Notes under the pieces: model-generated | The model's input: the letters and a program-made list of their open reading frames with translations, nothing else | Databases searched by the model: none | Told to the model about the DNA's origin: nothing | Translations under genes and position numbers: made by a program | From: Hirschia sp. | Lineage (GTDB): Bacteria; Pseudomonadota; Alphaproteobacteria; Caulobacterales; Hyphomonadaceae | DNA length: 64,000 bases | Direction: 5' to 3' | Assembly: GCA_002709235.1 (NCBI GenBank) | Contig: PAQI01000010.1 | Location: 200,278-264,277, forward strand | Shown here: positions 11,841 through 58,160 of the stretch, one piece after another | Numbering within the stretch: position 1 is the first letter of the stretch | Layout: every line of letters begins with the position of its first letter

Positions 11841-11956
11841 CCACACACCCGGCCTCGAACTTGCAACCATCAGGCGAGAAACGCCTCATCCAGTACCGTA
11901 ATATGATAGTGGATGGGCGAGTGTATCGTTTGGTGTCAAAAAGGGTCGGGTCGGGT

Positions 11957-13360
11957 ATGTTCTCCAATAAAGCAATGTTTTCTGTCGCTATGACGTTTGT
12001 AGCGGCTGGTGGTGCCGTCGCTCAAACGGCTGCACCCACAGCCGAACAAACCGCTCAATCGCTGGACACGCTGCCGTCGGCAATTGAATCGGTGCTGCTC
12101 AAGAACCCACGCATCATCGCGGAACGTGATCGACGTGACATCGCCAAGGAAACGCTGACACAATCGCATTCGGCATTACGTCCTCAGATAAGCCTGACAT
12201 CCAGCGGTGGATTTTCACGATCCGGGTCTACGCGTGGTTCCAGCTTTGCGGGTTCCACGCAGGAAATCGATTACTATGACAGCAAGTCCAAGCTGGCATC
12301 CATCGGCATTGAGGCGACCCAGACGATCTATTCCGGCGGCACCCTTCAGTCAGGTGTCAGACAGGCACAATATGGTGTGGACTCGGCAAATGCCGAGTTG
12401 ATGGCGGTCGTGCAGGGGCTCATTCTGGAAACTTCCACCGCTTATATTGATGTACGCACCGCCGAAGGCGAACTTTCGATCCGAAAGCAGAATGTGGATG
12501 CTCTCAAGAAGCAGTTCAAAGCGGCCAAAGACCGTTTTGAAGTGGGGGAGGTCACACGAACAGATGTCGCGCAGGCAGAAGCACGCCTATCCGGATCACA
12601 AGCTGATGTCGCGAGTGCCTATTCCGCACTCGAATCTGCCAAGGCGGTCTATTATGAACTGGTCGGACGCCCGCCAGTGGCGCTCGCACCGCAGGATGAT
12701 GTAGTCATCGCGGCAGCTGAGCTTGAAGAGGCAATCGAGATCACGCTTGCGCATAATCCCACGATCGTTTCGGCCCGTGCGGTTCTCGAAGTGGCACGCC
12801 AGAACGTGAAGATTGTAAAAGGCCAAAGACGCCCGACAATCGATTTGGTCGGTACTGCCGGTTATCGTCAGGAATGGTCAGATGGCCGCCTGGACGATGA
12901 CAATGTCGAGCTTGTCGCCCGCGCACGTTTGCCGCTTTATCAAGGTGGTTTGCTCGCCTCCCGCGTTCGCACGGCCAAGCTGGAAGAAAACCGCGCATTG
13001 ATGCAATTGCGTGCGACCGAACGCTCATTGATCGCTGGCGTATCCAGAGCGTGGTACACCGTGATTGCAGCCGATCAGGCCATTGAGGCTTCACAGCGTC
13101 AGGTCGAGGCTGCGCAGATTGCCTTTGATGGTGCTGAACAGGAGCTGGCGGCCGGGTTGAGAACAACGCTGGATGTGCTCGATCAGGAACGAGAACTGCT
13201 CAATGCGAGACTTGGTCTGATCAATGCCGAGCGTGCTGCCTATCTGGCGCGTCAGCAGCTCAATGCAGCGATGGGAGAACTTACACCTGAAAAGTTCGGT
13301 GTTAACATTACATTATCCAGTACTTATGACTATTCAGGACGAATCCATAATGGTGGCTAA
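11957..13360 (+). CDS. tolC: TolC-family outer membrane efflux protein
   Basis: There is a signal peptide (MFSNKAMFSVAMTFVAAGGAVAQ). The duplicated OEP coiled-coil repeats follow. The ORF extends upstream to 11861, but ATG 11957 precedes the signal peptide. Confidence 0.82.
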   Translation: MFSNKAMFSVAMTFVAAGGAVAQTAAPTAEQTAQSLDTLPSAIESVLLKNPRIIAERDRRDIAKETLTQSHSALRPQISLTSSGGFSRSGSTRGSSFAGSTQEIDYYDSKSKLASIGIEATQTIYSGGTLQSGVRQAQYGVDSANAELMAVVQGLILETSTAYIDVRTAEGELSIRKQNVDALKKQFKAAKDRFEVGEVTRTDVAQAEARLSGSQADVASAYSALESAKAVYYELVGRPPVALAPQDDVVIAAAELEEAIEITLAHNPTIVSARAVLEVARQNVKIVKGQRRPTIDLVGTAGYRQEWSDGRLDDDNVELVARARLPLYQGGLLASRVRTAKLEENRALMQLRATERSLIAGVSRAWYTVIAADQAIEASQRQVEAAQIAFDGAEQELAAGLRTTLDVLDQERELLNARLGLINAERAAYLARQQLNAAMGELTPEKFGVNITLSSTYDYSGRIHNGG

Positions 13361-37812: not shown

Positions 37813-38028
37813 ATGTCATCCAATGTCTACGCCATCTCCAAAATCGTCGGTACATCAGAGAAATCCGTGGAGGATGCAATCAACAACGCCCTGGTGACAG
37901 CTGGCAAGACGCTTCGCAACATGGAGTGGTTCGATGTCAGTTCCACGCGCGGCCACATCGTCGATGGTCGGGTTGGCCATTATCAGGTGACGCTGGAAAT
38001 CGGCTTTCGCTATGACAAGCCCAGCTAG
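37813..38028 (+). CDS. Dodecin-family flavin-binding protein
   Basis: The 71 aa protein has the sequence MSSNVYAISKIVGTSEKSVEDAINNALVTAGKTLRNMEWFDV...GHYQVTLEIGF. This matches the dodecin signature. Confidence 0.8.
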   Translation: MSSNVYAISKIVGTSEKSVEDAINNALVTAGKTLRNMEWFDVSSTRGHIVDGRVGHYQVTLEIGFRYDKPS

Positions 38029-38061: not shown

Positions 38062-38096
38062 ACAGGCGCTCACATATGTGAGCGCCTGTATTTTTG
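38062..38096. terminator. Bidirectional terminator between dodecin (+) and giant gene 1 (-)
   Basis: The perfect hairpin acaggcgctcaca / tat / tgtgagcgcctgt is followed by a T-run. Confidence 0.55.
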
Positions 38097-38117: not shown

Positions 38118-41100
38118 TTAGCTCGTCAGGAAGTAGTCATCTGTGTGAGCGAACATGCCGCCGGCGTCACCGCCATACAGTGCATCCAGAACCTGAAGGT
38201 CACTTTCAAAGACTGGCATAACAGTGCCCGTCGCGAAGGATTGACCAAGGTCGGTGATCATCTGCACGGAGGAGACATCCGCACGCTGACCGAAGGCTGC
38301 ATCCAGCAGGAAGTCAGATGGTCCACCAGTTTGCTGACCTGCGTCACTGGAAGAGCTGCTGTCTGCGGAGCTGGACCTGGCCATTGGCCCGATTGATGAC
38401 ATCGCCGACGAGGCCGGGGAGCTTGGTGCCTCGTAGAAGAACACGGCGGTCCCTTCAGCTGTATCACCTTCATCATCCTGAATGACATATTGGAAGGTGA
38501 TCGGGTTTGCAGAGAAGTCATAGTTCGGTGCGGTGAAGGTGAAGTCACCATTCGATGACAGTGTCAGCGTTCCTTCGCTTACCCATTGGCTTGGGTAGAG
38601 GAAGGTGACCGTACCACCATCAGGGTCGAAGTCAGCTCCATTGCCATTGTCGGCCAGTACATTTCCACTGACTGAACCACCAGCGCTGAGGTAGAACTCG
38701 TCATCCACAGCTATCGGCAACACATCAACCGGTTCGACAGTGAAGGTCGCAACAGCCGTGCTGGTCTCCGCACCATCGGTCAGCGTGTAAGTGAATGTGT
38801 CTTCACCGTAATAGCCGACAGCCGAGGTGTAGGAAATTGCACCCGTTTCGTCGATTGTCACACTACCACCATTTGCAGTGGTCCCGGAGGCTGCGACGAC
38901 CGAGATGGCATCGCCATCAATGTCGAAATCAACACCATTGCCATTGTCAGCCAGGACGTTGAACGCATTGGTCGTTCCATCGCCAGGTACTGTGAAGGCA
39001 TCGTCCACGGCAGTTGGTGCATCATTGACGGGCGTAACCGCAATGGTGACCACTTGAGTGACCTGAGAATTGGCTTCACCGGCACCATCATCGAAGACCA
39101 GCGTGGCAGCGACAGGGCCTGTAAAGTCTGCTGGTGGCGTCCAACTCAATGGCTGGCCGCGATCCACTACAATGGTCTCGTCAGCAATACCCGAGATTTC
39201 CGGATAGGTCAGCGTTATGGTGAGGTTGACCTCGTCTCCATCAACATCAGACGTATAGGCATCCAGATAGGCATTGATTTCAGCAACCGTTGCGTCGACA
39301 GGCGTATCTTCTTCCGTTGGCAGGATAAGGCCAGTCAGATCAGCAACCACAGGTGCATCATTGACAGGAAGAACCGTGAGCGTGGCCTGCTTCGTGGTCG
39401 ACAATTCACCGTCATCAGCCAGGACCGTCAGGGTGATGTCACCATTATAGTCCTGAGGCGGTGTCCAGCTGAAGTCTTCAGCCGGGTTCACGACAATGAC
39501 TTCTTCTGCCAGTCCGCTCTCGACCGGATATGTGAAGGTCAGGGAAACGGTAACGACGTCCCCATCAACATCAGCAACCAGTGCACCAAGATAAGCCTGG
39601 ATTTCCGCCGGAGTGGCTTCAACCGTTTCGTCTTCGTCGAGTGTCAGGTCGAGACCTGAGAGATCGGCGATGACCGGTGCATCATTGACATTGGTGATGT
39701 TCAGCGTCTGCGTCACATTTTCCAACAGTCCTGATTTTCCATCCGAAACAGTGTAGGTCAGCGTCAGTGCACCTGTGAAGTTCTGGGTGGTGACAACTGT
39801 GTAGCTTCCATTGCGATTATCAACGACACCGCCATTGGAAGAGGAAATCGACGTGATCTGCATCGCGTCACCTTCCGGGTCAGTCAGTCCCTCAAGCAAT
39901 TGTGCTTCGGAAACAACCGTTGGTGTGTCTTCGATACCATTGGTCAACACTGCGGTTGGTGTGCCCGTTGGTCCCTGGTTGGTGTCAGGGATGGAGAGCG
40001 TGAAGGTGACAGGTGTACTGTCGACTTCACCGTCATTGGCAGTGATCGTGATGTCGAACTCACCCCAGAGGTCAGGGTCAGTCGGGTTGATGGTCAGCGT
40101 GGAACCGTCCAGCGTTGTGAACAGTGCAGCCTGACCAGCTGTCAGGGTGAAGCTCAGGTCATCGCCATCGATGTCGAAGAAGGCTGAGTCAAGATTGATG
40201 GCAATCTCGGAGTTCAGATCCAGCGCGAAATCGAACAGGTAGCCCTGTGGTGCCGAGTTTGGCGGCAGGGTTGTGACCGTGATGTCAGCATCGACAGAGT
40301 CTTCGCCATCTGTTGCCGTAATGGTCAGTTCGAAATCGCCAGCATTGGCCGGGTCAATCGTCAGTGTCGCACCATCAAGAGTTGCGACAGCTGCATCTGC
40401 TCCACCCAGTGAGAAGGTGAGAGCATCTGAATCAGCGTCAGAGAAGAAGTTGTTCAGATCGATGACAAGTGGCTCACCCAGATCCATGGTCAGGTCACCA
40501 AGCGTGGTTTCCGGAGCATTGTTGGGGAAGTTGGCCGTGACGTTGAAGATGACAGGCTCGCTGTCCACAGCACCATCATTGGCAGTGACGGACAGTCCGT
40601 AAGTGCCGACTGCCTGCGGGTCGATGGTCAGCGTGGAGCCGTCCAGTGACGCAATTGCAGCACCTCCACCAGAGAGGCTGAAGGTCATTTCGTCGCCATC
40701 AGCATCCGTGAACAGGGTCAGCAGGTCGAGAACAACCGGCGTGCCGATTGTGGCGTTGACATCGTCAATGTCACCGGTCGGAGCTGAATTGTCTGGAGCA
40801 GCCGTGACCGTGAAGCTCACCGGATCACTGTCGTCTTCACCGTCATTCGCTGTGACAGTGAGTTCAAAGTCACCAGCTGTTTGTGGGTCGAGTGTCAGTG
40901 TAGAGCCGTCCAGGGATGCAATAGCAGCACCTGCACCCGATACCGAGAACGTCAATGCATCACCATTGGCATCGGTGAACAATGTCGACAGGTCCAGCAC
41001 AACCGGCGTGCCGATTGTGGCGTTGACGTCGTCAATGTCACCTGTCGGAGCAATGTTTGCTTCTTCAGCCGTGACGGTGAAGGAGACAGGAGCACTGTCT

Positions 41101-44100
41101 GCCGTGCCATCATTGGCAGTCACGATCAGCTCGAAATTGCCTTCGACAAACGGATCGATTGTGAGGGTTGATCCGTCGATTGAAGCAATCGCTGCACCTG
41201 CTCCAGACAGGCTGAAGGTCAGGGCGTCACCGTCGACATCCGTGAATACGGTTGTCAGGTCAATGATGACCGGTGTGCCCAGTTCAGCAGTCACGTCGTC
41301 AATGGATCCGGTTGGGGCCGTATTGGGTGGCGTGGTTTCGCCAACTGGGGTGAATGTCAGCTTGTCGACACGTGCCCATTCAGCATTGTCACGCGCCCCT
41401 GTGATCTCGATGACGTCGCCGTTCTCGATCTCAAGACCTTCCACCGTGTAGGTCATCAGGCTGCCAGCATTTGCAGCATTGGAACCTGTGTCTGTGTTCA
41501 TGACGATCGTGGCCACGAGCACACCATCGACGCGGATCTCCAGAGGAGACTGGCCGTCGGCTTCGTCGAAGACTGCAAGATCGAGGTCGAACGTGCCGTT
41601 GTCACCAGCCCATGTGTACATCATGGTTCCGGTCGTTGGCGAACCTTCAACTGTTCCAGTGAACAGGCCAGCATATTCGCCGCCAGAAGCTGCTGCGCTC
41701 GTTTCGACGACATAGCCGTCGAGAACCAGGTCTTCAGCTTCGATTACGACAGGCTCACCAGTCGGAGTTGGTGTCGGCGTGGTCAATTCGCCGGTCTGGG
41801 CGAAAGCCAGCTTGTCGATACGAACTTCTTCATTGTTGTTCTTTGTACCAACCAGTTCGATTACATCACCCGTACGCAGTTCCAGACCTGGGATCGGAAA
41901 CTCCTTGAGCGTGCCGCTGGTCATGTAACCGGCGGATGTGGCTCCATCCATGTCGATGGTGGCAACCAGTTCGTCATTCACAAAAATGTCGATGGAGGCT
42001 GCGCCATCATTTTCGTCAAAGGCCGAGAGGGTCAGCGTGTAGACGGCATCGCCACCAGCAAATGTGTAAGCCAGCGTGCCTTCTGTTGCGCCGCTGTTGA
42101 ACAGCGATGCAACTGCACCTTCAGATGCCAGGCCGGTGTTCTCGACGATGAAGCCTTCAGCGATGATGCTTTCGGCCTCGACTTCGAAGGTTTCACCAAC
42201 GGGTGTTGGCAGGGTAGCGGAGACAGTGAAGGTAACAGGCGCGCTGTCCACTGTGCCGTCATTGGCTGTCACGGTCAGGGCGAAATCGCCTGCTGCGGCT
42301 GGGTCGATGGTCAGTGTGGAACCATCAATGGAACCAGCGGCTGCACCTGCACCAGAAAGCGTGTAGGTGAGGGCGTCACCGTCAATGTCGCTGAATGCTG
42401 CATCCAGATCGATGGTGATGGGTGTGCCGACGACCGCGTCAACATCTGCAATGTCACCGGTTGGTGCCGTGTTGGTTGGTCCTGGCGTGCCGTCAATCGG
42501 CGTGAAGGTCAGCGTGTCGATACGTACCCACTCATCGGCATTTTGCGTCGCCGCGATCTGGATCGTGTCGCCAGCTTCAAGGCTGAGACCAGCGATGGTG
42601 AAGTCCAGCAGATTGCTGGCTTTCATGCCGCCAGAGTTTGTCGAATTGTTCATCGTGATGGTCTGGACCAGCGAGCCATTGACCAGGACATCGAACGAGC
42701 TTGCACCGTCATTCTCATCAAAGGCTGCGATCGTCAGGTCATATGTGCCCTCACCACCAGCGAATGTGTAGGCGAGCGTGCCGGATGTGTTGCCACTGTT
42801 CAGCAGCGACGCGACCTGGCCATCGGAGGCCGGCGAAGAGTTCTCGACAATGAAGCCATTGGCGATGATGTCTTCGGCTTCAACAACAATCGTGCTGCCA
42901 CCTGCAACTGGAGCCGTTGCAGACACTGTGAAGGTCACAGGCGCACTGTCGACCGTGCCGTCATTTGCCGTGACAGTGATGTCATAGCTGCCTGCCGCAA
43001 AGGCGTCGACCGTAAGCGTTGATCCATCAAGGCTAGCAATCGAGGCCCCTGGACCAGAGATCGAGAATGTCAGCGCATCGTCGTCCGCGTCAGTGAAGAG
43101 CGTGGAGAGGTCAAGTGTGACAGGTGTACCGACAACAGCGTTTACGTCAGCAATGTCGCCTTCTGGTGCGGTGTTGGTCGGGGTTGGAGCCGGGGTGGTG
43201 TCACCTTCAGGTGTGAAAGTGAGCTTATCGACACGTGCCCATTCTGCGTTGTCGCGGTTACCCGTGATTTCGACAATGTCACCTGATTCCAGCGAGAGAC
43301 CGGCAACCGAGTAGGTGATCAGGCTGGCTGCATTGGCAACGCCCGAACCCGTGTCAGTATTCATAGAGACAGTTTCGATCAGGACGCCATTCACGCGGAC
43401 CTCGAGGGTCGAGTTACCGTCTGATTCGTCAAACACATCCAGGTAGAGCGTGTAGTCGCCTGCACCGCCTGTGAATGTGTAGGTCATGGTGCCTGTCGTT
43501 GGCGAACCTTCAACCGTACCGGTGAACAGTCCGGCATATTCGCCACCGGAAGCAGCACCGCTGGTTTCTACCACATAGCCATTCAGGACCAGGTCTTCAG
43601 CTTCCACAACAATGGATTCGCCCGTAGGGGTTGGAGCCGTTGCAGACACTGTAAAGGTCACAGGTGCGCTGTCGACCGTGCCGTCATTTGCCGTGACGGT
43701 GATGTCGAAGCTGCCTGCTGCCGAAGCATCGAGAGTCAGTGTCGAACCATCAAGGCTAGCAATCGAGGCGCCTGGACCAGAGATCGAGAATGTCAGCGCA
43801 TCGTCATCCGCGTCAGTGAAGAGCGTGGAGAGGTCAAGCGTGACGGGCGTGCCGACAACAGCGTTTACGTCAGCAATGTCGCCTTCTGGTGCGGTGTTGG
43901 TCGGTGTCGGAGCCGGTGTGGTGTCACCTTCAGGTGTGAATGTCAGCGTGTCGATACGAACCCATTCATTGGCGTTCTGTGTCGCCATGATCTGAACGAG
44001 GTCGCCAGCTTCCAGGCTTAGGCCGGTAACTGTGAAGTCGAGCAGGTTGCTGGCTTTCAGTGCGCCAGAGCCCGTTGCGTTGTCCATTGTAAGCGTTTGA

Positions 44101-44834
44101 ACGAGCGTGCCATTGACCAGGACGTTCAGCGTGCTTGCGCCATCGTTTTCGTCAAAGGCTGCAATGGTCAGTGTGTAGTCACCTGTTCCACCGCCAAATG
44201 TGTAGTTGAGCGTGCCGGAAGTGCCGCCACTGTTCAGCAGGGACGCAACCTCACCGCCTGATGCCAGGCCAGTTGCCTCGACGACAAAACCGTTGGCAAT
44301 GATGCTTTCCGCTTCAATGACGAGGGGCTCGGCTGAAGGTGTGGGGGTAGGCGTAGGAGCTGGTGTTGGGGTGACTTCACCCAGCGGTGAAAAGGTCAGC
44401 TTGTCGACGCGCGCCCATTCAGCAAGGTCTCTGGAACCGGTGATCGTGATCACGTCACCGAATTCAAGGTCCAGGTCGTTGAGTGTGTAGGAAATCAGGG
44501 ACGTTGCGGACACACCACCATCACCGGTGTTGGTGTTCATCACAACCGTGTCGATCAGTGTGCCATTGATACGCACTTCAAGAGGCGAGGCACCGTCGTT
44601 CTCGTCATAGACAAAAAGCTCCAGATCATAAGCACCGTCGCCACCTTCAAATGTGTAGGTGAGTGTTCCGGATGTCGGAGAGCCGTCGACTGAGCCATTG
44701 AACAGGGAGGCATAGGAGCCACCTGAGGCTGAGCCGTGGTCCGCGACCACATATCCATTTGTGATAATGTCTTCGGCTTCAATAGTAAGAACGCCGGTTG
44801 CTTCGTCAATTGAGCTTATTGTGCCGTCGGCCAT
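38118..44834 (-). CDS. Giant secreted repeat protein with novel beta-module repeats, cadherin-like/Ig domains, VCBS-like repeats and a shared C-terminal domain
   Basis: The 2238 aa protein has six ~145 aa modules of the form IEAEDxxxNGxVVE..ASGG..A.LxN...GTLxYTF.GG.G.YDL.L..FDE.DG.S.L.V.VNG.L....M......NAEWARVDKLTF. These are separated by PT linkers and about 9 ~90 aa domains of the form NTAPxGDIxDVxAxxGTPVxLDLSxLFTDADGDALTFS.SGxGAxIASLDGSTLTxDP..AG.F.LTVTANDG..DS.PV.F.V.A, typical of dystroglycan-type cadherin-like (putative Ig) domains. PVNDAP-type repeats follow, then a Ser-rich linker and a ~110 aa C-terminal domain. The ORF is continuous in the six-frame track, and its shadow ORFs on the + strand were rejected. 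Confidence 0.85.
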   Translation of the reverse strand: MADGTISSIDEATGVLTIEAEDIITNGYVVADHGSASGGSYASLFNGSVDGSPTSGTLTYTFEGGDGAYDLELFVYDENDGASPLEVRINGTLIDTVVMNTNTGDGGVSATSLISYTLNDLDLEFGDVITITGSRDLAEWARVDKLTFSPLGEVTPTPAPTPTPTPSAEPLVIEAESIIANGFVVEATGLASGGEVASLLNSGGTSGTLNYTFGGGTGDYTLTIAAFDENDGASTLNVLVNGTLVQTLTMDNATGSGALKASNLLDFTVTGLSLEAGDLVQIMATQNANEWVRIDTLTFTPEGDTTPAPTPTNTAPEGDIADVNAVVGTPVTLDLSTLFTDADDDALTFSISGPGASIASLDGSTLTLDASAAGSFDITVTANDGTVDSAPVTFTVSATAPTPTGESIVVEAEDLVLNGYVVETSGAASGGEYAGLFTGTVEGSPTTGTMTYTFTGGAGDYTLYLDVFDESDGNSTLEVRVNGVLIETVSMNTDTGSGVANAASLITYSVAGLSLESGDIVEITGNRDNAEWARVDKLTFTPEGDTTPAPTPTNTAPEGDIADVNAVVGTPVTLDLSTLFTDADDDALTFSISGPGASIASLDGSTLTVDAFAAGSYDITVTANDGTVDSAPVTFTVSATAPVAGGSTIVVEAEDIIANGFIVENSSPASDGQVASLLNSGNTSGTLAYTFAGGEGTYDLTIAAFDENDGASSFDVLVNGSLVQTITMNNSTNSGGMKASNLLDFTIAGLSLEAGDTIQIAATQNADEWVRIDTLTFTPIDGTPGPTNTAPTGDIADVDAVVGTPITIDLDAAFSDIDGDALTYTLSGAGAAAGSIDGSTLTIDPAAAGDFALTVTANDGTVDSAPVTFTVSATLPTPVGETFEVEAESIIAEGFIVENTGLASEGAVASLFNSGATEGTLAYTFAGGDAVYTLTLSAFDENDGAASIDIFVNDELVATIDMDGATSAGYMTSGTLKEFPIPGLELRTGDVIELVGTKNNNEEVRIDKLAFAQTGELTTPTPTPTGEPVVIEAEDLVLDGYVVETSAAASGGEYAGLFTGTVEGSPTTGTMMYTWAGDNGTFDLDLAVFDEADGQSPLEIRVDGVLVATIVMNTDTGSNAANAGSLMTYTVEGLEIENGDVIEITGARDNAEWARVDKLTFTPVGETTPPNTAPTGSIDDVTAELGTPVIIDLTTVFTDVDGDALTFSLSGAGAAIASIDGSTLTIDPFVEGNFELIVTANDGTADSAPVSFTVTAEEANIAPTGDIDDVNATIGTPVVLDLSTLFTDANGDALTFSVSGAGAAIASLDGSTLTLDPQTAGDFELTVTANDGEDDSDPVSFTVTAAPDNSAPTGDIDDVNATIGTPVVLDLLTLFTDADGDEMTFSLSGGGAAIASLDGSTLTIDPQAVGTYGLSVTANDGAVDSEPVIFNVTANFPNNAPETTLGDLTMDLGEPLVIDLNNFFSDADSDALTFSLGGADAAVATLDGATLTIDPANAGDFELTITATDGEDSVDADITVTTLPPNSAPQGYLFDFALDLNSEIAINLDSAFFDIDGDDLSFTLTAGQAALFTTLDGSTLTINPTDPDLWGEFDITITANDGEVDSTPVTFTLSIPDTNQGPTGTPTAVLTNGIEDTPTVVSEAQLLEGLTDPEGDAMQITSISSSNGGVVDNRNGSYTVVTTQNFTGALTLTYTVSDGKSGLLENVTQTLNITNVNDAPVIADLSGLDLTLDEDETVEATPAEIQAYLGALVADVDGDVVTVSLTFTYPVESGLAEEVIVVNPAEDFSWTPPQDYNGDITLTVLADDGELSTTKQATLTVLPVNDAPVVADLTGLILPTEEDTPVDATVAEINAYLDAYTSDVDGDEVNLTITLTYPEISGIADETIVVDRGQPLSWTPPADFTGPVAATLVFDDGAGEANSQVTQVVTIAVTPVNDAPTAVDDAFTVPGDGTTNAFNVLADNGNGVDFDIDGDAISVVAASGTTANGGSVTIDETGAISYTSAVGYYGEDTFTYTLTDGAETSTAVATFTVEPVDVLPIAVDDEFYLSAGGSVSGNVLADNGNGADFDPDGGTVTFLYPSQWVSEGTLTLSSNGDFTFTAPNYDFSANPITFQYVIQDDEGDTAEGTAVFFYEAPSSPASSAMSSIGPMARSSSADSSSSSDAGQQTGGPSDFLLDAAFGQRADVSSVQMITDLGQSFATGTVMPVFESDLQVLDALYGGDAGGMFAHTDDYFLTS

Positions 44835-45324
44835 GGTAGATCCCCACCCTAGGTAAGATACTGAACAATTGACGCCAAAATCTCATGTTAGGGAATTGTT
44901 TACTACCTGATTCAACTCGATGGTGTGCAAATAATATGTATTTCCGGTAATATACCTTTTGACGCGAATATTAGGCATATTGCTTAACCCTAACAGGGAA
45001 AATGAATGCCTGTTGGTTTATGAAAATATAATATAATTCAGTAATTTAGATGAAAATTTACTGCTAATTATTTGGAATGGGGGTGGTTATTGTTAATTCT
45101 CCATAAATGCGTTTAACGTCGATCAAATACTCCCGTCAGGTTGAGTTTATAACGTATAAATCTCCTGCTGAGTGAAGAGGCTTGTGCTCTTTACATTAAA
45201 GGTCTGGAGACAGTTTTCCATATGCGGGTTTGAGGGCGGAACTGGTCTGATCATTGCTAGATAGGACCGACAGGATGCAACCGTTTCGCCCCGTTGGGGA
45301 ATAAACACTCGCGTCCTCCGATTA
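44835..45324. promoter_or_regulatory. AT-rich divergent promoter/regulatory region between the two giant genes
   Basis: The 490 bp region is markedly AT-rich (about 35% GC vs about 58% in the window; eyeballed, not computed). It contains many A/T tracts and lies between divergently transcribed giant ORFs. Confidence 0.4.
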
Positions 45325-48300
45325 TTGAGCCATTGCGGTACGTGGAGGTACATTGGCATGAGTGAGATCGCTGATATCGGCACCGGGCTGACCGAGGTTG
45401 AGACGCTTACGCTCTCGGGAAGCTATGAAGTCGAGACAGTAACCGGGGCATCTGGTGGTGCCGTGGTGCAAACTCTCAGCGATGTGAGTGCAGGCCAGGC
45501 TATAGGTATCTTTAATGGTGCCGCAGGTACTTATGAGTTCACAATAAACTATATAGACGGCGCAAACGGTGCCTCTGATATTGTTGTGCTGGTCAATGGC
45601 GGCGCAGTTCACTCCTGGGCAGCCAATGGTACCGCAGGCGCAGCCAGCGAAGTTTTCCAGCTCGAATTGTCACCCGGCGACGAGATCTCGATCTCCGGTG
45701 TCAAGGATGGCGATGACCTGGCGCGTCTGGACTCGATCAACCTGTCTCCGGTTGGTACGATGACCGAGCCAGCGAGTTTCACAATCGAAGCCGAGGATAT
45801 TATCGGTGCCGGATATGTCGTGGAAACCTCCACCAAGGCATCAGGCGGAAAACTGGCATCGCTCTTTGACGGCTCGACAGCAAATTCTGCCACCTCCGGC
45901 ACGCTTAGCTACACATTCGACCAGACCGCAGGCATCTACGATCTTGATCTGACCGTTTTCGACGAGTCCGATGGCGCATCGACAATTGATGTGCGGGTCA
46001 ATGGCGAACTTATCACGACATTTACACTCGATGCACCGACCAGCTCGGCTGGTGTGTCGAACAACAGCAGACTTGTCTACTCCGCCGAAGGGTTGGAGCT
46101 GCAGGCAGGCGATTTGATCGAATTAACAGGCAATCAGGACAGTGGCGAATGGGCACGTATCGACAAGCTCGACTTCGTCGCCATTGAGGGAATCATGACC
46201 AGCGAACCGACAACAACAGAACTACCATCCAGCGAAACAGCATCAAGCGGTCCGACGCCGACCAGTAGCGCGCTGGCAGCAGGTGATCTGATCATCGGCC
46301 TGAATGAAGCCGAGGACATGCTCTTGTCCGGCGGTTACACGGTGGAAAACAGTGCGATCTATGCCAATGGGCAAGGCGTTCAAAATGCAGATGTCGGCCA
46401 GACCGTCGGCACCATTGAGGGCACTTTCACGGGCGCTGCCGGTGACTATGAACTGACGGTCGCATATTATGACGAAAGCGATGGAGAAGCTGACTACATC
46501 CTGCTGATCAATGGCTCTGCCGTTGACAGCTGGAGCGGTACTGGCGGCACGTCCATTGAAGGCGACAGGGTAGAACGCACGATTTCTGTCACGCTGACGG
46601 GCAATGACACCATTGAAATCGCAACCCACCGCAATGACAATGGCGAACTGGCACGCATCGACTCCATCGCAATCGAGTCTGCATCCACAACACCAACACC
46701 AACGCCGACTCCCACGCCTACGCCTACACCGACCCCAGCGCCTACACCGACAGGCGAACCGGTTGTTGTGCAGGCTGAAGACATCATCAGCGGCGCTGGT
46801 TATGTGGTTGAAACACACAATGCGGCTGCGGGTGGTGAATTTGCCTCGCTCTTCAACGGCACGGTCGCCAACTCGGCCAGTTCCGGCAAGTTGAGCCACA
46901 CCTGGACAGGTGACACCGGCACTTACGAACTCGTCCTGGATGTCTTTGATGAAGCCGACGGCAATTCCACATTGGAAGTCCGCGTGAATGGCGTCCTGAT
47001 CGACACGGTCACGATGGACACCAACACGAATGTGAACGGCTATAACGCCAACAACCTGATCTCCTACACGGTCGAGGGACTTTCGCTCACATCCGGTGAT
47101 GTTGTTGAAATCACAGGTAACCGCGAGAACGCCGAATGGGCGCGCGTGGACCAGTTGACATTCAACCCTGTCGACACCGGCACACCGACTCCCACGCCAA
47201 CCCCTACACCGACGCCAACGCCGACAAACACGCCGCCAGAAGGCGACATCAATGACGTCAACGCTGTTGTCGGTACACCGGTCACCATTGATCTGGACAG
47301 CCAGTTCAGCGATCTGGACGATGATGCACTGACATATGTCCTGTCCGGCTCCGGCGCATCTGTCGCAACCTTGAACGGCTCGACACTGACCATTGATCCT
47401 TCGGCAGCAGGCAATTACACGCTGACCATCACTGCCAATGACGGCACCGACGACAGCGCGCCTGTGACCTTTACAGTATCTGCGACGTCGCCCACGCCGA
47501 CCAGCGGCCCGATCATCCTCGAAGCAGAGGACATGATCTCCAATGGCTTCGTGATCGAGAACACATCAGTGGCCTCCGAAGGCCAGGTTGCATCCCTGCT
47601 GAATTCCGGTGGAACAACCGGAACGCTGTCTCACACCTTTGCAGGTAGCGCAGGCACCTATGACCTGACAGTGGCCGCATTTGATGAAAATGACGGCGCT
47701 GCAACAATCGATGTTCGTGTGAATGGCGTGCTGATCGACACCATTTCGATGGACAACAACACTTCCTCCGGTGGTCTGAAATCCTCCAACCTGCTCGACT
47801 TCACCGTTTCCGGCCTCGAACTTGAAGCAGGGGATGTTGTCGAGCTGATCGGACATCAAAACTCAGGCGAATGGGTGCGCATCGATACGGTCACGTTCGA
47901 AGGTGTCGCCGGTTCACCAACTCCGACACCGACACCCACGCCGACGCCAACGCCGACCCCCACACCGACGCCTCTTCCTGAGCCTTTCGAGGTTGAAGCA
48001 GAATCCATCATCTCCAGCGGTTTCATCGTGGAGAACACCGGTCTGGCATCAGATGGCAAGGTTGCGTCCCTGTACAATAGTGGCGCAACACAAGGCACGC
48101 TGGCTTACACATTTGCTGGTGGCGATGCCGTCTACACACTGACCCTTTCCGCCTTTGACGAGAATGATGGTGCAGCCACTATCGACATTCTGGTCAATGA
48201 CGAACTGGTCGCAACCGTCGACATGGATGGGGCAACGTCAGCTGGCTATATGACCAGCGGCACGCTCAAACAGTTCGAGATCCCAGGTCTGGAACTGCGC

Positions 48301-51081
48301 GCAGGTGACGTGGTTGAGCTCGTCGGTACCAAGGACAATTTCGAGGAGGTCCGCATCGACAAGCTGGCCTTCGCTCCTACCGGCGAACTGTCGACACCAA
48401 CTCCAACCCCCACGCCAACACCTACGCCGACTCCAACGCCAACCGGCGAGGCAATCTCGATCGAAGCTGAAGACATGGTGCTCAATGGCTATGTCATCGA
48501 AACCCATGCAGCAGCCTCGGGCGGCGAATATGCCGGCCTGTTCAATGGCTCGGTTGAAGGTTCGCCAACAACCGGAACCATGTCTTACACCTGGACGGGC
48601 GGAAATGGCACGTTCGACCTTGACCTTGCAGTCTTCGACGAAGCGGATGGTCAGTCTCCTCTGGAAATCCGCGTCGATGGTGTGCTTGTGGCAACGATCG
48701 TCATGAACGCCGACACGGGTTCCAACGCGGCCAGCGCAGCCAGCCTGATCACCTACACGGTGGAAGGCCTGGAGATCCAGAACGGCGACGTCATCGAGAT
48801 CACGGGTTCCCGTAACAACGCTGAATGGGCCCGCGTCGACAAGCTGACCTTCACACCGGTTGGCGAAACCACGCCGACACCAACCCCAACTCCCACCAAT
48901 ACACCTCCAGAAGGTGACATTGATGATGTGGATGCGGTTGTGGGCTCGCCGGTCGTGATCGATCTGGATGCTCAGTTCAGTGATCTGGACAATGATGACC
49001 TGACCTATTCGCTCTCCGGTTCAGGCGCATCCATTGCCACGCTGAACGGCTCCAATCTGACGCTTGATCCTTCGTCCGCGGGTACCTACACGATTACCAT
49101 CACGGCCAATGACGGTTCGGACAACAGTTCGCCCGTCACCTTCACGGTGAGCGCAACGGATCCTGTCGTGACGACCGGCCCGATCGTGCTGGAAGCCGAA
49201 GACATTATTGCTTCTGGTTTCATCGTGGAAAACTCGAACCCTGCATCGGGCAATCAAGTGGCCTCGCTGCTGAATTCCGGCGCAACCACAGGCACGCTCA
49301 GCTACACCTTCGCAGGTGCAGATGGCGATTATGACCTGACATTGGCGGCGTTCGATGAGAGCGATGGCAATTCTACAGTGTTGATCCGTGTGAACGGTTC
49401 TACCGCCGCGACCATCAACTTGGATGGAAACACCAGTTCCGGCGGCATGAGCTCTGGAAACCTGCTCGACTTCACGGTCTCCGGACTGGCGCTGTCGACG
49501 GGAGATCTCGTTGAAATCGTGGGTAGCCAGAACGCTGATGAGTGGGTGCGTCTCGACACCGTGACCTTCACACCTCTGGATACCACCCCAACACCAACTC
49601 CAACCCCGACGCCAACTCCCACACCGACGCCAACGCCGACCTCTTCAGTCGATATCGGGGTGGGAACAACGCAAGCGGAAGTGCTGGAATTGTCCGGTGG
49701 TTACCAGACAGAAAACAAGACCAATTACACAAATGGTGCAGGTATCCTGAACCTGGCCAATATTGGTGAAACGGCCACGGCTTCGGGTGCTTTTACGGGT
49801 AATTCAGGTGCCTATGACATCACCGTCACCTATCTGGATGAAAGCGACGGTGAGGCCAGCTGGTCATTGCTCGTCAACGGTGTTGCGGTGGATAGCTGGA
49901 ATGGTACAGGCGGCTCCAACGCCACCGGTACACCAACAGAACGCTCCATCCTTGTCGATCTGGACCCAGGCGATGTCGTGACCGTCAGCGGTACACGCAA
50001 CGACAATGGCGAAATGGCGCGCATCGACAAGATCAACATCCAGGCACAGCAAGTCCCTGGTCTGATCTCTACCGATGTCGACTACTTCGTCTTTGCCGGT
50101 CAATCGAATGCAGAACGCCACTTCTACCGTGCGAGCGGCGACAACAGCACGGGTGATCTGGGGGCTGATGTCTTCGAGCAGACCATCACAAACCTGACAG
50201 GCTACAACACAACTGCAATCGAAGCGGCCAAGGGTGGTTCCGGGTCGAACGAAAATGCAGACCCTGACAGCTATTGGTGGAACCTGGCCACGGACCAGCC
50301 AGGTCCTGAGCTGATCGCAGCGATCAACACGATCAATGCGACGCTCGGAGCCGGTAAGGATATCGATGGTATCATCTGGTCTCAGGGTGAAGATGATGCC
50401 CGCGCCATGACCAGCGCCAGCGGTAATGCCGAGCAGGTGATTGCGGACCTCAAGACAGCCACGACCAAGGTGTTTGAATATTTCTGGTCGATCTATGGCG
50501 AGGATGTTCCGATCTTCATCCAGGAAATCGGTGATTTCCCGGAAGGTTCAGGCTTCTATTCCGATGGTCCCGTCGGTGCCCTTGAACTGGTTCGGCAGGC
50601 CCAGCAGGAACTGATTGCAGAACTGGACAATGTCTATTTCGGTGCAAGCACTGACGGTGTTGAGCAGTTTGGTGACATTCACTTCTCCGTCGCCGGATAT
50701 GGCGATATCGCAGAAGATCTCGCTGACTCTGTTGTCGACTACCTCACGCCGGGTTCCTCCACCTCGTCCATGCAGTCATTTGCAAGAGTGGCAGAACCCA
50801 CGTCAGAGAGCGCCGAGCAATCAGAATCGACGTCATCTTCTGATGGTGGACATGGTGAGTTTGCCTATATGGGAGGGGCCGGAACCGATGGGTTCCTGCT
50901 GACCAACACCAATGCGTTCGACACGCTTCCGGTATTCGTGCCGAAGACTCAGGTCGCTGAATCGCCCGATCTGGGCGGTGGGGGCGCAATGACGTTCACG
51001 CCGATGGCTGACATTTTCAGCGCAGAAGGCATGGATTTCGATCTGGGTGGAAGCCAGAACGACGACTGGTACATCATCTGA
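45325..51081 (+). CDS. Giant secreted repeat protein with novel beta-module repeats, cadherin-like domains and a C-terminal SASA/DUF303-type SGNH carbohydrate esterase domain
   Basis: The 1918 aa protein may start at ATG 45358 (MSEIADIG). It is built from two module types (an A-type like gene 1 and a B-type, LSGGYxxEN...G.FTG..G.YD.TV.Y.DESDGE....L.NG.AVDSW.GTGG...ARID.I.I) plus cadherin-like domains and PT linkers. The C-terminus (about 50050-50760) carries the GQSN, IIWSQGEDDA and DIHFS motifs of a sialate-O-acetylesterase-like SGNH hydrolase. After that comes a Ser-rich linker and a ~100 aa terminal domain homologous to that of gene 1. Confidence 0.85.
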   Translation: MSHCGTWRYIGMSEIADIGTGLTEVETLTLSGSYEVETVTGASGGAVVQTLSDVSAGQAIGIFNGAAGTYEFTINYIDGANGASDIVVLVNGGAVHSWAANGTAGAASEVFQLELSPGDEISISGVKDGDDLARLDSINLSPVGTMTEPASFTIEAEDIIGAGYVVETSTKASGGKLASLFDGSTANSATSGTLSYTFDQTAGIYDLDLTVFDESDGASTIDVRVNGELITTFTLDAPTSSAGVSNNSRLVYSAEGLELQAGDLIELTGNQDSGEWARIDKLDFVAIEGIMTSEPTTTELPSSETASSGPTPTSSALAAGDLIIGLNEAEDMLLSGGYTVENSAIYANGQGVQNADVGQTVGTIEGTFTGAAGDYELTVAYYDESDGEADYILLINGSAVDSWSGTGGTSIEGDRVERTISVTLTGNDTIEIATHRNDNGELARIDSIAIESASTTPTPTPTPTPTPTPTPAPTPTGEPVVVQAEDIISGAGYVVETHNAAAGGEFASLFNGTVANSASSGKLSHTWTGDTGTYELVLDVFDEADGNSTLEVRVNGVLIDTVTMDTNTNVNGYNANNLISYTVEGLSLTSGDVVEITGNRENAEWARVDQLTFNPVDTGTPTPTPTPTPTPTPTNTPPEGDINDVNAVVGTPVTIDLDSQFSDLDDDALTYVLSGSGASVATLNGSTLTIDPSAAGNYTLTITANDGTDDSAPVTFTVSATSPTPTSGPIILEAEDMISNGFVIENTSVASEGQVASLLNSGGTTGTLSHTFAGSAGTYDLTVAAFDENDGAATIDVRVNGVLIDTISMDNNTSSGGLKSSNLLDFTVSGLELEAGDVVELIGHQNSGEWVRIDTVTFEGVAGSPTPTPTPTPTPTPTPTPTPLPEPFEVEAESIISSGFIVENTGLASDGKVASLYNSGATQGTLAYTFAGGDAVYTLTLSAFDENDGAATIDILVNDELVATVDMDGATSAGYMTSGTLKQFEIPGLELRAGDVVELVGTKDNFEEVRIDKLAFAPTGELSTPTPTPTPTPTPTPTPTGEAISIEAEDMVLNGYVIETHAAASGGEYAGLFNGSVEGSPTTGTMSYTWTGGNGTFDLDLAVFDEADGQSPLEIRVDGVLVATIVMNADTGSNAASAASLITYTVEGLEIQNGDVIEITGSRNNAEWARVDKLTFTPVGETTPTPTPTPTNTPPEGDIDDVDAVVGSPVVIDLDAQFSDLDNDDLTYSLSGSGASIATLNGSNLTLDPSSAGTYTITITANDGSDNSSPVTFTVSATDPVVTTGPIVLEAEDIIASGFIVENSNPASGNQVASLLNSGATTGTLSYTFAGADGDYDLTLAAFDESDGNSTVLIRVNGSTAATINLDGNTSSGGMSSGNLLDFTVSGLALSTGDLVEIVGSQNADEWVRLDTVTFTPLDTTPTPTPTPTPTPTPTPTPTSSVDIGVGTTQAEVLELSGGYQTENKTNYTNGAGILNLANIGETATASGAFTGNSGAYDITVTYLDESDGEASWSLLVNGVAVDSWNGTGGSNATGTPTERSILVDLDPGDVVTVSGTRNDNGEMARIDKINIQAQQVPGLISTDVDYFVFAGQSNAERHFYRASGDNSTGDLGADVFEQTITNLTGYNTTAIEAAKGGSGSNENADPDSYWWNLATDQPGPELIAAINTINATLGAGKDIDGIIWSQGEDDARAMTSASGNAEQVIADLKTATTKVFEYFWSIYGEDVPIFIQEIGDFPEGSGFYSDGPVGALELVRQAQQELIAELDNVYFGASTDGVEQFGDIHFSVAGYGDIAEDLADSVVDYLTPGSSTSSMQSFARVAEPTSESAEQSESTSSSDGGHGEFAYMGGAGTDGFLLTNTNAFDTLPVFVPKTQVAESPDLGGGGAMTFTPMADIFSAEGMDFDLGGSQNDDWYII
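46687..46752 (+). repeat. Pro-Thr linker-encoding microsatellite-like tract (ACNCCN)n
   Basis: The tract acaccaacaccaacgccgactcccacgcctacgcctacaccgaccccagcgcctacaccgaca encodes TPTPTPTPTPTPTPAPTPT. Similar tracts occur at about 47170-47225, 47918-47973, 48395-48445, 48870-48900 and 49590-49645, and in gene 1 (for example 44290-44350). Confidence 0.8.
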
Positions 51082-51122
51082 TTGCAACAGCACTGAACAA
51101 TCGTTCAGGCAAAATGACCATG

Positions 51123-51157
51123 AAGGCGGCGGGTATTATGCTCGCCGCCTTCTTTTT
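51123..51157 (+). terminator. Rho-independent terminator after giant gene 2
   Basis: The hairpin aaggcggcg / ggtattatgct / cgccgcctt is followed by ctttttgcgtttt. Confidence 0.55.
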
Positions 51158-51313
51158 GCGTTTTGGGGCTGACAGTTAACCACATTGAGATTAAACGAGC
51201 GGGCCCGGACAAAGCTTGTCCATGGGGGGCTGACCTTCATGGACTGTGCGGCGCTCTCCCTGGGGGGCAGAGCGTCGCACCCTGGTCCGCCGTTGAATTT
51301 TAAGTGGCATTGC

Positions 51314-52030: not shown

Positions 52031-52039
52031 ATCACAGTT

Positions 52040-58149: not shown

Positions 58150-58160
58150 GTGTGGCTACC

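What the first reader, a model, noticed from the sequence alone, without database searches (positions are those of the whole stretch)
38118..38480. Shared ~110 aa C-terminal domain on both giant proteins: candidate secretion/sorting signal
Both giants end with a Ser-rich linker (SSPASSAMSSIGPMARSSSADSSSSS vs SSTSSMQSFARVAEPTSESAEQSESTSSS) and an alignable terminal domain. Gene 1 ends ...SDFLLDAAFGQRADVSSVQMITDLGQSFATGTVMPVFESDLQVLDALYGGDAGGMFAHTDDYFLTS. Gene 2 ends ...DGFLLTNTNAFDTLPVFVPKTQVAESPDLGGGGAMTFTPMADIFSAEGMDFDLGGSQNDDWYII (50760..51081). The shared pattern is FLL-x3-5-AF-x(n)-PVF-x2-(K/S)-x-QV, followed by a Gly/Asp-rich acidic tail. There is no LPXTG, no PEP-CTERM hydrophobic anchor and no obvious RTX GGxGxD nonapeptides. 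The N-termini lack classic signal peptides. This suggests a non-canonical C-terminal export signal, for example a type I secretion signal; a TolC homologue is at 11957..13360, though no ABC/MFP pair is nearby. Alternatively it could be a novel cell-surface sorting domain.
Basis: partly seen in the sequence, partly recalled or inferred. Interest (0 to 1): 0.65.

Follow-up and report, generated by a model that had tools for sequence, protein, structure and literature searches.

The report
Likely type I secretion tails, unrelated
Two giant surface proteins of a marine Hirschia bacterium each end in a floppy, acidic tail that most likely works as an ordinary C-terminal export signal for a type I secretion system, but the two tails are not a shared conserved domain and nothing here looks like a new sorting mechanism.

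Summary
Both giants (gene 1, 38118-44834 minus; gene 2, 45358-51081 plus) end in a 26-30 aa Ser-rich spacer and then a 75-79 aa acidic tail. Neither has a membrane anchor or an N-terminal signal peptide.

The claimed "alignable shared domain" is not supported:
- BLASTP gives E=0.14, and Smith-Waterman against shuffles gives p=0.24.
- The tails share three 3-mers against 2.9 expected by chance.
- AlphaFold gives both tails pLDDT about 30-55, next to well-folded neighbouring domains.

Its tail holds one perfect and three near-perfect GGxGxDxUx nonapeptides (P=0.0003). It also aligns weakly (hhalign P=7e-4) with the RTX end-cap of classical type I secretion (T1SS) substrates.

Both proteins are Cys-free with pI about 4, and they end in DDWYII and DDYFLTS. 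Relatives of their Big_9 and SASA modules carry RTX repeats or end in an acidic residue followed by hydrophobic residues.

Best reading: both are ordinary T1SS substrates with fast-evolving, disordered signals. Gene 2's tail is a decayed RTX block and gene 1's is an RTX-less orphan. No ABC/MFP transporter lies within the window or 10 kb either side, so export is inferred, not shown. Interest is low.

The parts
38118..44834 (-). Gene 1: 2238-aa leaderless giant protein. It contains unclassified ~140-aa CBM-like modules, Ig-like He_PIG/Big_2 modules, 7 Big_9/cadherin-like (tandem-95) repeats, a Ser spacer and an acidic tail.
   Evidence: ORF and translation. Pfam and NCBIfam hits. 0 Cys and pI about 4.05. 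Annotated as a hypothetical protein, MBB35033.1, in a Hirschia sp. MAG.
38346..38423 (-). Gene 1 Ser-rich spacer, SSPASSAMSSIGPMARSSSADSSSSS.
   Evidence: Translation. It lies between the last Big_9 domain (pLDDT 80-92) and the tail; pLDDT falls through 56-47 here.
38121..38345 (-). Gene 1 acidic 75-aa tail ending in DDYFLTS. Putative RTX-less T1SS secretion signal with no detectable homologues.
   Evidence: 11 D+E against 1 K+R, and no RTX-like nonapeptide. No family hits. No homologues found beyond identical copies. pLDDT 33-47. hhalign to the RTX-end profile is negative.
38062..38089 (.). Bidirectional intrinsic terminator hairpin between gene 1 and the convergent dodecin gene.
   Evidence: 12-bp stem with 8 GC pairs and T-runs on both strands. 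It shows that gene 1 ends here and has no co-transcribed downstream gene.
45358..51081 (+). Gene 2: 1907-aa leaderless giant protein (the ATG at 45358 is the start used in public gene calls). It contains CBM-like modules joined by Pro-Thr linkers, Ig-like modules, a SASA-type esterase domain, a Ser spacer and an acidic tail.
   Evidence: Translation. Pfam hits. This exact protein is called on 29 blocks of marine metagenome contigs. 0 Cys and pI about 4.05.
50065..50754 (+). SASA-like (sialate O-acetylesterase / SGNH-type) carbohydrate esterase domain just before the spacer.
   Evidence: PF03629 hit. Relatives P0004-P0013 are 33-56% identical. AlphaFold pLDDT is mostly 85-99.
50752..50841 (+). 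Gene 2 Ser-rich spacer, GSSTSSMQSFARVAEPTSESAEQSESTSSS.
   Evidence: Translation. pLDDT about 28-38.
50842..51078 (+). Gene 2 acidic 79-aa tail ending in DDWYII. A decayed RTX block plus a T1SS-type extreme C-terminus.
   Evidence: Four RTX-like nonapeptides, P=0.0003 against shuffles. hhalign to the RTX-end/T1SS profile gives P=6.8e-4 over 56 columns. pLDDT 28-44.
50845..50898 (+). Two RTX-like nonapeptides in exact 9-residue register: GGHGEFAYM, then GGAGTDGFL.
   Evidence: This is the only strict RTX match in either giant.
50974..51000 (+). Degenerate RTX-like nonapeptide GGGGAMTFT (4 of 5 constraints met).
51046..51072 (+). Degenerate RTX-like nonapeptide GGSQNDDWY (4 of 5 constraints met), overlapping the terminal DDWYII motif.
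51122..51152 (+). Intrinsic terminator after gene 2.
   Evidence: 14-bp stem with 9 GC pairs, followed by TTTTT.
11861..13360 (+). TolC-family outer-membrane factor. A possible outer-membrane partner for any T1SS, but not specifically linked to these genes.
   Evidence: PF02321 hit, E=5e-67. It sits next to the DUF2497 and ValRS genes.

Best explanation
Both giant proteins are substrates of a type I secretion system (ABC transporter, membrane-fusion protein and TolC-like channel) encoded elsewhere in the Hirschia genome. Each would be exported unfolded, in one step from the cytoplasm. The transporter would recognise an uncleaved, intrinsically disordered signal in the last ~60-80 residues: acidic, almost free of Lys/Arg/Pro, and ending in Asp-Asp followed by aromatic or aliphatic residues. 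The Ser-rich stretch is a flexible spacer that keeps the signal clear of the last folded domain. The two tails are functional analogues that evolve too fast to be alignable; they are not a conserved domain. Gene 2's tail is a decayed remnant of the RTX block and end-cap found in classical T1SS substrates. Gene 1's tail has lost any recognisable RTX repeat.

Shown here: the anatomy, the composition, the absence of leader and anchor, the RTX remnants, the predicted disorder, and the RTX or hydrophobic ends of relatives.

Inferred: that export actually occurs, that it goes through a T1SS, and that the tail is the signal.
For: 1. There is no Sec/Tat leader. The first CBM-like module starts at about residue 15 of gene 1, and no upstream start codon exists.
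2. The domains are extracellular in type: Big_9/cadherin-like, Ig-like and a SASA esterase.
3. Both proteins have 0 Cys in 2238 and 1907 residues and pI about 4. Predicted RTX proteins are almost all acidic (pI 3.2-4.9 for 90%), and RTX lipases and S-layer proteins lack Cys (PMC3034196).
4. In the last 20 residues, D/L/T/V/I/F minus R/K/E/P scores 9 for gene 1 and 7 for gene 2. Ten relatives' tails, nine of them RTX/T1SS-type, score 5-14. Only 2 and 4 of 33 other window proteins reach those scores. K+R in the last 60 residues is 1, against a background of 6.7+/-3. These criteria come from PMC8861453.
5. The extreme ends fit known motifs. DDWYII is Asp followed by hydrophobic residues, as in AprA-type proteases, and its last two residues fit [FLI][VAI]. 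DDYFLTS resembles TliA's EGVLIS (PMC2642768; PMC8861453).
6. Gene 2's tail has 4 RTX-like nonapeptides, two of them in 9-residue register (P=0.0003). It aligns with the 'GGxGxDxLxGxxGaDTFvF...DxIxDF' end of RTX blocks (hhalign P=6.8e-4).
7. Relatives of gene 1's Big_9 region mostly end in GGxGxD repeats plus a classical T1SS C-terminal domain. These relatives are mainly alphaproteobacterial, plus one cyanobacterial MAG.
8. Relatives of gene 2's SASA domain that have a complete N-terminus lack a leader. Two carry PF00353 RTX repeats, and most end in an acidic residue followed by hydrophobic residues: DEFVFV, DQFNFA, DQVYVA, DNLLA, DYFIA, IDLFA, SDFI, EFGFDLA.
9. Both tails are predicted to be unstructured, next to confidently folded domains. 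This is expected for a T1SS signal.
Against: - No HlyB-type ABC or HlyD-type MFP gene lies in the 64-kb window or within 10 kb either side. The ABC/MFP pair on the left flank is YbhG/YbhF-like efflux, next to an RND pump. Presence of a T1SS in this genome is therefore untested.
- Gene 1's tail has no RTX remnant, no match to the RTX-end profile, and ends in TS rather than a hydrophobic pair.
- The acidic, K/R-poor composition holds for the whole proteins, so tail composition alone does not discriminate.
- NCBIfam's T1SS C-terminal target-domain models were not hit.
- The hhalign probability for gene 2 is only 27%.
- The low pLDDT of the tails may partly reflect the lack of aligned homologues.
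Confidence: 0.62

Rival explanations
1. The tails have no signal function. They are disordered, low-complexity C-terminal extensions, for example decayed linker or RTX remnants. Whatever directs export lies elsewhere in the proteins, or in the last few residues only.
For: No significant similarity between the tails. No homologues found in searches of billions of proteins. No predicted fold. Several SASA relatives end directly after the enzyme domain with only a short acidic-hydrophobic end, so a long tail is dispensable in this family.
Against: Both paralogues keep the same three-part layout: a Ser spacer where all internal linkers are Pro-Thr, an acidic tail, and a DD-aromatic-hydrophobic end. 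This holds even though the tails follow different last domains. P0011, a relative whose SASA region is 43% identical, has the same layout. T1SS signals are known to lie in the last ~60 residues (PMC3034196).
Confidence: 0.15
2. The tails are a genuinely homologous, lineage-specific C-terminal domain. It would act as a new sorting or retention module, for example anchoring the adhesins to the cell surface or to the holdfast or exopolysaccharide, or docking to a dedicated non-T1SS exporter.
For: Motif echoes recur in gene 1, gene 2 and P0011: a Ser-rich stretch containing M-x-S, then FL[LA]..AF, then a DD-aromatic end. The locus carries polysaccharide and c-di-GMP genes. Two neighbouring membrane proteins (57376-58149 and 58161-59816) have no family assignment.
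Against: Every statistical test of tail-to-tail similarity is at chance level: gene 1 vs gene 2 p=0.24, gene 2 vs P0011 p=0.60, gene 1 vs P0011 p=0.83, and shared 3-mers P=0.55. There is no predicted fold. There are no other proteins with such tails in the window, in 40 fetched loci, or in the large libraries. The 'FLL' of gene 2 is explained as part of an RTX nonapeptide.
Confidence: 0.1
3. The proteins are not exported by a T1SS at all. They reach the surface by another leaderless route, such as vesicles, lysis, or an uncharacterised system, and the T1SS-like features are inherited relics.
For: No transporter genes are linked. Both genes are monocistronic between a divergent promoter region and strong terminators.
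Against: Established knowledge (PMC3034196; Roseobacter exoproteome papers listed) is that leaderless, Cys-free, acidic giant repeat proteins in Proteobacteria are typically T1SS substrates. From my own knowledge, they are often unlinked to their transporter in marine Alphaproteobacteria. Relatives keep intact RTX blocks.
Confidence: 0.08

Closest known systems
RTX-family type I secretion substrates with the classical C-terminal target region (HlyA, CyaA, AprA/PrtG proteases, TliA lipase, Caulobacter RsaA)
   Same: - No leader peptide, Cys-free, pI about 4.
- An uncleaved C-terminal region.
- An acidic residue followed by hydrophobic residues at the extreme end.
- Gene 2 has one perfect and three degenerate GGxGxDxUx units, followed by a 'DxFLL...AF..D.L..F' stretch that aligns with the RTX end-cap.
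   Different: - There is no real RTX array (at most 4 degenerate units, against 4 to more than 40), so no beta-roll is expected.
- The Pfam HemolysinCabind and NCBIfam T1SS target-domain models are not hit.
- Gene 1 has no RTX unit at all.
- A Ser-rich spacer takes the place of the RTX block.
- No transporter is linked.
Non-RTX or RTX-poor T1SS substrates (HasA haemophore, Salmonella giant adhesin SiiE, Rhizobium Rap/Ply proteins exported by PrsDE)
   Same: These are large repetitive Ig-like or cadherin-like adhesins, or polysaccharide-active enzymes. They are exported through a C-terminal signal without a substantial RTX block, and the signals are not conserved in sequence. This comparison rests on my own knowledge plus the non-RTX T1SS class discussed in PMC8861453 and PMC12607715.
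   Different: No sequence similarity to any of them was detected. Those substrates have experimentally identified transporters, usually adjacent; here none is known.
Leaderless CBM-like plus SASA-esterase proteins of other Alphaproteobacteria (P0004-P0013; Hyphomonas beringensis, Paracoccaceae and Defluviicoccus MAGs)
   Same: The SASA region is 33-56% identical. The same unclassified CBM-like module lies upstream in P0004-P0008 and P0011. Members with a complete N-terminus have no leader. Most ends are an acidic residue followed by hydrophobic residues. P0011 has a positionally equivalent long tail after a Ser-rich start.
   Different: Most end directly after the enzyme domain, or carry true RTX arrays (P0009, P0013). 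None has a tail significantly similar to that of gene 2.

Membership tests
Type I secretion system substrate (general class) | No N-terminal Sec/Tat signal peptide | tested here: met
   The N-termini are MADGTISSIDEATGVL... and MSEIADIGTGLTEVE.... The maximum 19-residue hydropathy is at most 1.03, and no upstream start exists in the ORF. No dedicated signal-peptide predictor was available.
Type I secretion system substrate (general class) | C-terminal ~60-residue region with T1SS-type composition: D/L/T/V/I/F-rich and R/K/E/P-poor in the last 20 residues, with a hydrophobic end preceded by an acidic residue | tested here: met
   One search gives scores of 9 and 7, within the 5-14 range of the relatives' tails and in the top 2/33 and 4/33 of window proteins. 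The ends are DDWYII and DDYFLTS. Criteria are from PMC8861453 and PMC2642768. Gene 1's last two residues (TS) do not fit [FLI][VAI].
Type I secretion system substrate (general class) | A cognate ABC transporter and membrane-fusion protein in the genome, often adjacent | tested here: inconclusive
   None is present in the window or within 10 kb either side. TolC is present at 11861-13360. The rest of the genome (GCA_002715175.1) could not be read with these tools.
Type I secretion system substrate (general class) | Demonstrated tail-dependent export | not testable with these tools
   This needs exoproteomics or reporter fusions.
RTX protein family (Pfam PF00353 HemolysinCabind) | Tandem array of GGxGxDxUx nonapeptides detectable by the family model | tested here: not met
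   PF00353 was not hit for either protein or either tail, even at E<=10. Gene 2 has only 1 strict and 3 degenerate units, which is significant against shuffles (P=0.0003) but not an array. Gene 1 has none.
NCBIfam 'type I secretion C-terminal target domain' models | Match to the curated HMM | tested here: not met
   No NCBIfam hit for either tail at E<=10 or for the whole proteins. A home-made profile built from six relatives' RTX ends gives P=6.8e-4 (27% probability) for gene 2's tail and nothing for gene 1's.
Membrane-anchored C-terminal sorting signals (LPXTG/sortase, PEP-CTERM/exosortase, GlyGly-CTERM/rhombosortase, and the like) | A short motif followed by a hydrophobic transmembrane helix and a basic tip | tested here: not met
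   Neither tail has a hydrophobic helix (maximum KD19 0.59-0.74). Each tail has only 1 K+R. There are no NCBIfam or Pfam hits.
   Tail-to-tail similarity is at chance. No true homologues were found. pLDDT is below 50 in both tails.

The most novel reading that the evidence does not exclude
Marine Hyphomonadaceae might use a distinct, RTX-independent class of C-terminal export or retention tail on giant carbohydrate-binding adhesins and esterases. The tail would be a Ser-rich spacer followed by a disordered acidic segment ending in DD-aromatic-hydrophobic residues. It would be recognised by a dedicated transporter or surface receptor that has not been identified. Gene 1, gene 2, P0011 and perhaps the Robiginitomaculum protein in L016 would be its first members.
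Probability: 0.1. Interest if true: 0.5.

Novelty: new member of a known kind. Interest (0 to 1): 0.2.

Why it matters
If the reading is right, there is little new mechanism here. It adds two RTX-poor or RTX-less substrates to the already heterogeneous set of type I secreted giant adhesins and enzymes. It also illustrates how an RTX block can decay into a Ser-rich spacer and a disordered acidic tail while the protein presumably remains exportable.

The practical value is for annotation. These abundant Tara Oceans proteins of a Hirschia-like bacterium are currently labelled 'hypothetical'. They can be flagged as probable secreted carbohydrate-binding adhesins or esterases in an exopolysaccharide and c-di-GMP neighbourhood.

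The tails would become interesting only if an RTX-independent recognition mode or a retention function were shown experimentally.

Tried and rejected
1. Homologue searches with each tail in the 5.8-billion-protein word-indexed library returned only an identical 152-aa fragment for gene 1 and nothing for gene 2. Gene 1's full-length protein was not returned even though it is a cluster representative in that collection, and gene 2's exact sequence is not in it at all. These negatives are therefore weak.
2. A full HMMER scan of 1.84 billion representatives with the two tails joined end to end gave only two hits at E<1e-3. Both are repeat artefacts: P0002 is a protein of repeats I recognise as PD40/TolB-like, whose 'YVMGADGTNQTRLTNNT..D..PAFSP' unit echoes gene 2's 'YMGGAGTDGFLLTNTNAFDTLPVF'. 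P0003 is a repeat-rich protein that looks like a Gram-positive surface protein. I rejected both as homologues. The two window proteins themselves were not recovered, so these tails are poorly represented in that library.
3. Scans for 8-residue peptides from the tails found no tail match in 185,579 species-representative genomes. In JGI metagenomes they found one identical fragment.
4. A phmmer search of both tails against all six-frame ORFs of the window and 31 loci found nothing but identical copies.
5. I looked for variation among metagenome copies to measure constraint on the tails. All copies are identical, so this was uninformative.
6. I looked for T1SS genes next to three SASA relatives, P0011, P0006 and P0009. 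Their neighbours include polysaccharide-synthesis genes (P0006, P0009), and there is no transporter near any of them.
7. Literature searches for the MAG accession, and for Hirschia together with type I secretion, found nothing.
8. I considered sortase/exosortase-type anchors, the T9SS C-terminal domain (seen only in the Bacteroidota relatives L008 and L019) and double-glycine N-terminal leaders. I rejected all three on sequence grounds.
Full report
**What is there**

The finding covers the 3' end of a 2238-aa ORF on the minus strand (38118-44834, "gene 1"). It compares this with the end of a divergently transcribed 1907-aa ORF (45358-51081, "gene 2").

- Gene 1 contains unclassified ~140-aa CBM-like modules, Ig-like modules and seven Big_9/cadherin-like "tandem-95" repeats.
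- Gene 2 contains many of the same CBM-like modules joined by Pro-Thr linkers, and it ends with a SASA-type carbohydrate esterase domain.
- Large internal blocks of the two proteins are 64-66% identical.
- Both genes are followed within about 30-40 nt by strong intrinsic terminators (38062-38089 and 51122-51152). The C-termini are therefore genuine, and neither gene is co-transcribed with a downstream gene.

Identical copies of the locus occur on many Tara Oceans and other marine metagenome contigs. It also occurs in the NCBI MAG GCA_002715175.1, where the organism is named Hirschia sp. (Hyphomonadaceae) and gene 1 is a "hypothetical protein".

**Checking the observation**

The quoted sequences are correct.

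- After the last folded domain, each protein has a 26-30 aa Ser-rich spacer (38346-38423; 50752-50841). An acidic tail of 75 or 79 aa follows (38121-38345; 50842-51078).
- Neither tail has a hydrophobic helix, and neither N-terminus looks like a signal peptide.
- Neither tail hits any Pfam or NCBIfam model, even at E<=10.

The claim that the tails form an "alignable terminal domain" fails every test I could apply:

| Test | Result |
|---|---|
| BLASTP, tail vs tail | best E=0.14 (8/23 identities) |
| Smith-Waterman vs shuffles, tails alone | p=0.24 |
| Smith-Waterman vs shuffles, with Ser spacers | p about 0.02 |
| MAFFT alignment | FLL motifs not aligned |
| Shared 3-mers (FLL, PVF, DLG) | 3 observed, 2.89 expected, P=0.55 |

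The p of about 0.02 with the spacers reflects the shared layout of composition, not shared residues.

AlphaFold models the SASA domain at pLDDT mostly 85-99 and the last Big_9 domain at 80-92. Both linker-plus-tail regions score only about 28-56. The caveat is that the tails had no aligned homologues. What the two proteins share is an architecture and a composition, not a domain.

**The RTX point**

This holds for gene 1 but not for gene 2.

- Gene 2's tail starts D-GGHGEFAYM-GGAGTDGFL. These are two units in exact 9-residue register, and the second is a perfect GGxGxDxUx. It is the only strict match in either giant.
- GGGGAMTFT and GGSQNDDWY follow further along the tail.
- Four windows meet at least 4 of 5 RTX constraints, against 0.41 in composition-preserving shuffles (P=0.0003). 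The protein bodies have 0.13-0.18 such windows per 79 residues.
- I built a profile from the RTX ends of six relatives found. It aligns gene 2's "GGHGEFAYMGGAGTDGFLLTNTNAFDTLPVF" with the consensus "GGxGxDxLxGxxGaDTFvF...s..DxIxDF", with hhalign P=6.8e-4 and 27% probability.

Gene 1's tail gives nothing in either test.

**Relatives**

Neither tail has detectable homologues:

- Word-indexed searches found only an identical fragment.
- A full HMMER scan of 1.84 billion representatives gave two repeat artefacts.
- Peptide-pattern scans of 185,579 genomes and of JGI metagenomes gave only identical sequence.
- No other ORF in the window or the fetched loci carries such a tail.

These negatives are weakened because some libraries did not return the query proteins themselves.

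The relatives of the adjacent domains are informative. Homologues of gene 1's terminal Big_9 region mostly end in GGxGxD arrays plus a classical T1SS end such as ...NGSLVV...NGTVIV or ...DQFDFV. They are mainly alphaproteobacterial, plus one cyanobacterial MAG.

Ten homologues of gene 2's SASA region were recovered (33-56% identity):

- Those with a complete N-terminus have no leader peptide.
- Two carry PF00353 RTX repeats.
- Most stop right after the enzyme domain with an acidic-hydrophobic end: DEFVFV, DQFNFA, DQVYVA, DNLLA, DYFIA, IDLFA, SDFI.
- One, P0011, has a positionally equivalent long tail: a Ser-rich start, then "FLATNEAFD", ending in "DDEFGFDLA". It echoes gene 2, but its similarity is at chance level (p=0.6).

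This pattern fits a rapidly evolving, compositionally constrained signal attached to a family of T1SS cargoes.

**Mechanism**

I conclude that both giants are most likely exported by a type I secretion system, with the signal in the disordered acidic tail and the Ser stretch acting as a spacer. Support:

- Neither protein has a leader peptide.
- The domains are of extracellular type.
- Both proteins have zero cysteines and pI about 4. Predicted RTX proteins are almost all acidic, and RTX lipases and S-layer proteins lack cysteines (PMC3034196).
- The composition of the last 20 residues falls within the range of the relatives' RTX/T1SS tails and in the upper tail of the window's other proteins, using the criteria of PMC8861453.
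- The extreme ends are DDWYII and DDYFLTS. These match the "acidic residue followed by hydrophobic residues" motif of AprA- and TliA-type substrates (PMC2642768), and DDWYII also fits the [FLI][VAI] terminal pair.
- Gene 2's tail contains RTX remnants.

Export itself is not shown. No HlyB/HlyD-type genes lie in the window or within 10 kb either side. The left flank holds a YbhG/YbhF-like ABC pair and an RND pump. The TolC gene at 11861-13360 sits next to DUF2497 and ValRS, so it is not specific evidence. I could not read the rest of the genome. My confidence in the T1SS reading is about 0.6.

**Rivals**

- The tails are functionless disordered remnants (about 0.15).
- The tails are a real lineage-specific sorting or retention module (about 0.1).
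- The proteins use a non-T1SS route (under 0.1).

**Comparison and novelty**

The closest known kinds are the RTX family, of which gene 2 is a decayed member that fails the family HMMs, and the RTX-poor T1SS cargoes such as SiiE, HasA and the Rhizobium Rap/Ply proteins. Membership of the RTX family and of the NCBIfam T1SS target-domain family was tested and not met. Membership of the broader functional class "T1SS substrate" is met on every sequence criterion I could test and is untested on transporter presence and on function.

This is a new member of a known kind. The "shared novel domain" that made the finding interesting is not real. Interest is low, about 0.2. The most novel reading not excluded is an RTX-independent Hyphomonadaceae tail class with its own receptor or transporter, at about 10% probability.

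Noticed in passing
window 38118-44834 and 45358-51081, e.g. gene 1 aa 405-535; also P0004-P0008 and P0011: A ~140-aa module (EAED..GYVVE..ASGG..FDE[ND]DG..VRVNG..GD.VEI.G...EWARVDKLTF) occurs about 6 times in gene 1 and about 10 times in gene 2 (rough counts by eye from the translations). It matches no Pfam family; only spurious sub-threshold SH3 hits appear. It looks like an uncatalogued carbohydrate-binding-type beta-sandwich module, and it also occurs upstream of SASA esterases in other Alphaproteobacteria.
   Followed up: partly
window 38118-51081: The two divergent giant genes share internal blocks of about 380 aa at 64-66% identity. Their last domains differ (Big_9 vs SASA) and their tails are unrelated. 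This suggests module exchange between the paralogues that stopped short of the 3' ends.
   Followed up: partly
window 51185-62367: The genes downstream of gene 2 look like an exopolysaccharide and c-di-GMP neighbourhood: DUF599, a 491-aa GT2 (cellulose-synthase-like) glycosyltransferase, a PAS-GGDEF-EAL protein, and an Acyl_transf_3+SGNH O-acetyltransferase-type protein. There are also two membrane or coiled-coil proteins with no family (57376-58149 and 58161-59816). SASA relatives P0006 and P0009 elsewhere also sit among polysaccharide genes. This hints that gene 2 de-acetylates a surface polysaccharide.
   Followed up: partly
whole window; L001-L004, L025-L037: The locus is identical at the protein level on dozens of contigs from different Tara Oceans and other marine metagenomes. 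It also occurs in the MAG GCA_002715175.1 (Hirschia sp.). No variant tails were seen. This points to a widespread, nearly clonal population.
   Followed up: partly
window 38062-38089: A perfect 12-bp palindromic hairpin with T-runs on both strands lies between the convergent dodecin gene (37813-38028) and gene 1. It is probably a bidirectional terminator.
   Followed up: no
gene 2 tail, 50857-50940; P0002: The stretch FAYMGGAGTDGFLLTNTNAFDTLPVFVP resembles the repeat unit of P0002 (YVMGADGTNQTRLTNNT..D..PAFSPDG), which I recognise from memory as a PD40/TolB-type beta-propeller repeat. This produced the top hit of the 1.84-billion-protein scan, with E=3.8e-6 summed over 5 repeats. I judged it a repeat-inflated coincidence, but it remains unexplained.
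   Followed up: partly
L016 4943-8551 (Robiginitomaculum sp. MAG, Hyphomonadaceae): A Big_9 relative in another Hyphomonadaceae member also ends in a Ser-rich, acidic spacer and an acidic tail (..YYTDLFNFL), with no RTX array in its last 160 residues. It has the same style of tail as the window proteins but no significant similarity to them.
   Followed up: partly
window 62555-63076: This 173-aa ORF looks, from memory only, like an IS200/REP-associated tyrosine transposase. The gene calls at this position differ between metagenome contigs (147, 173 or 179 aa upstream variants). It was not checked against Pfam.
   Followed up: no
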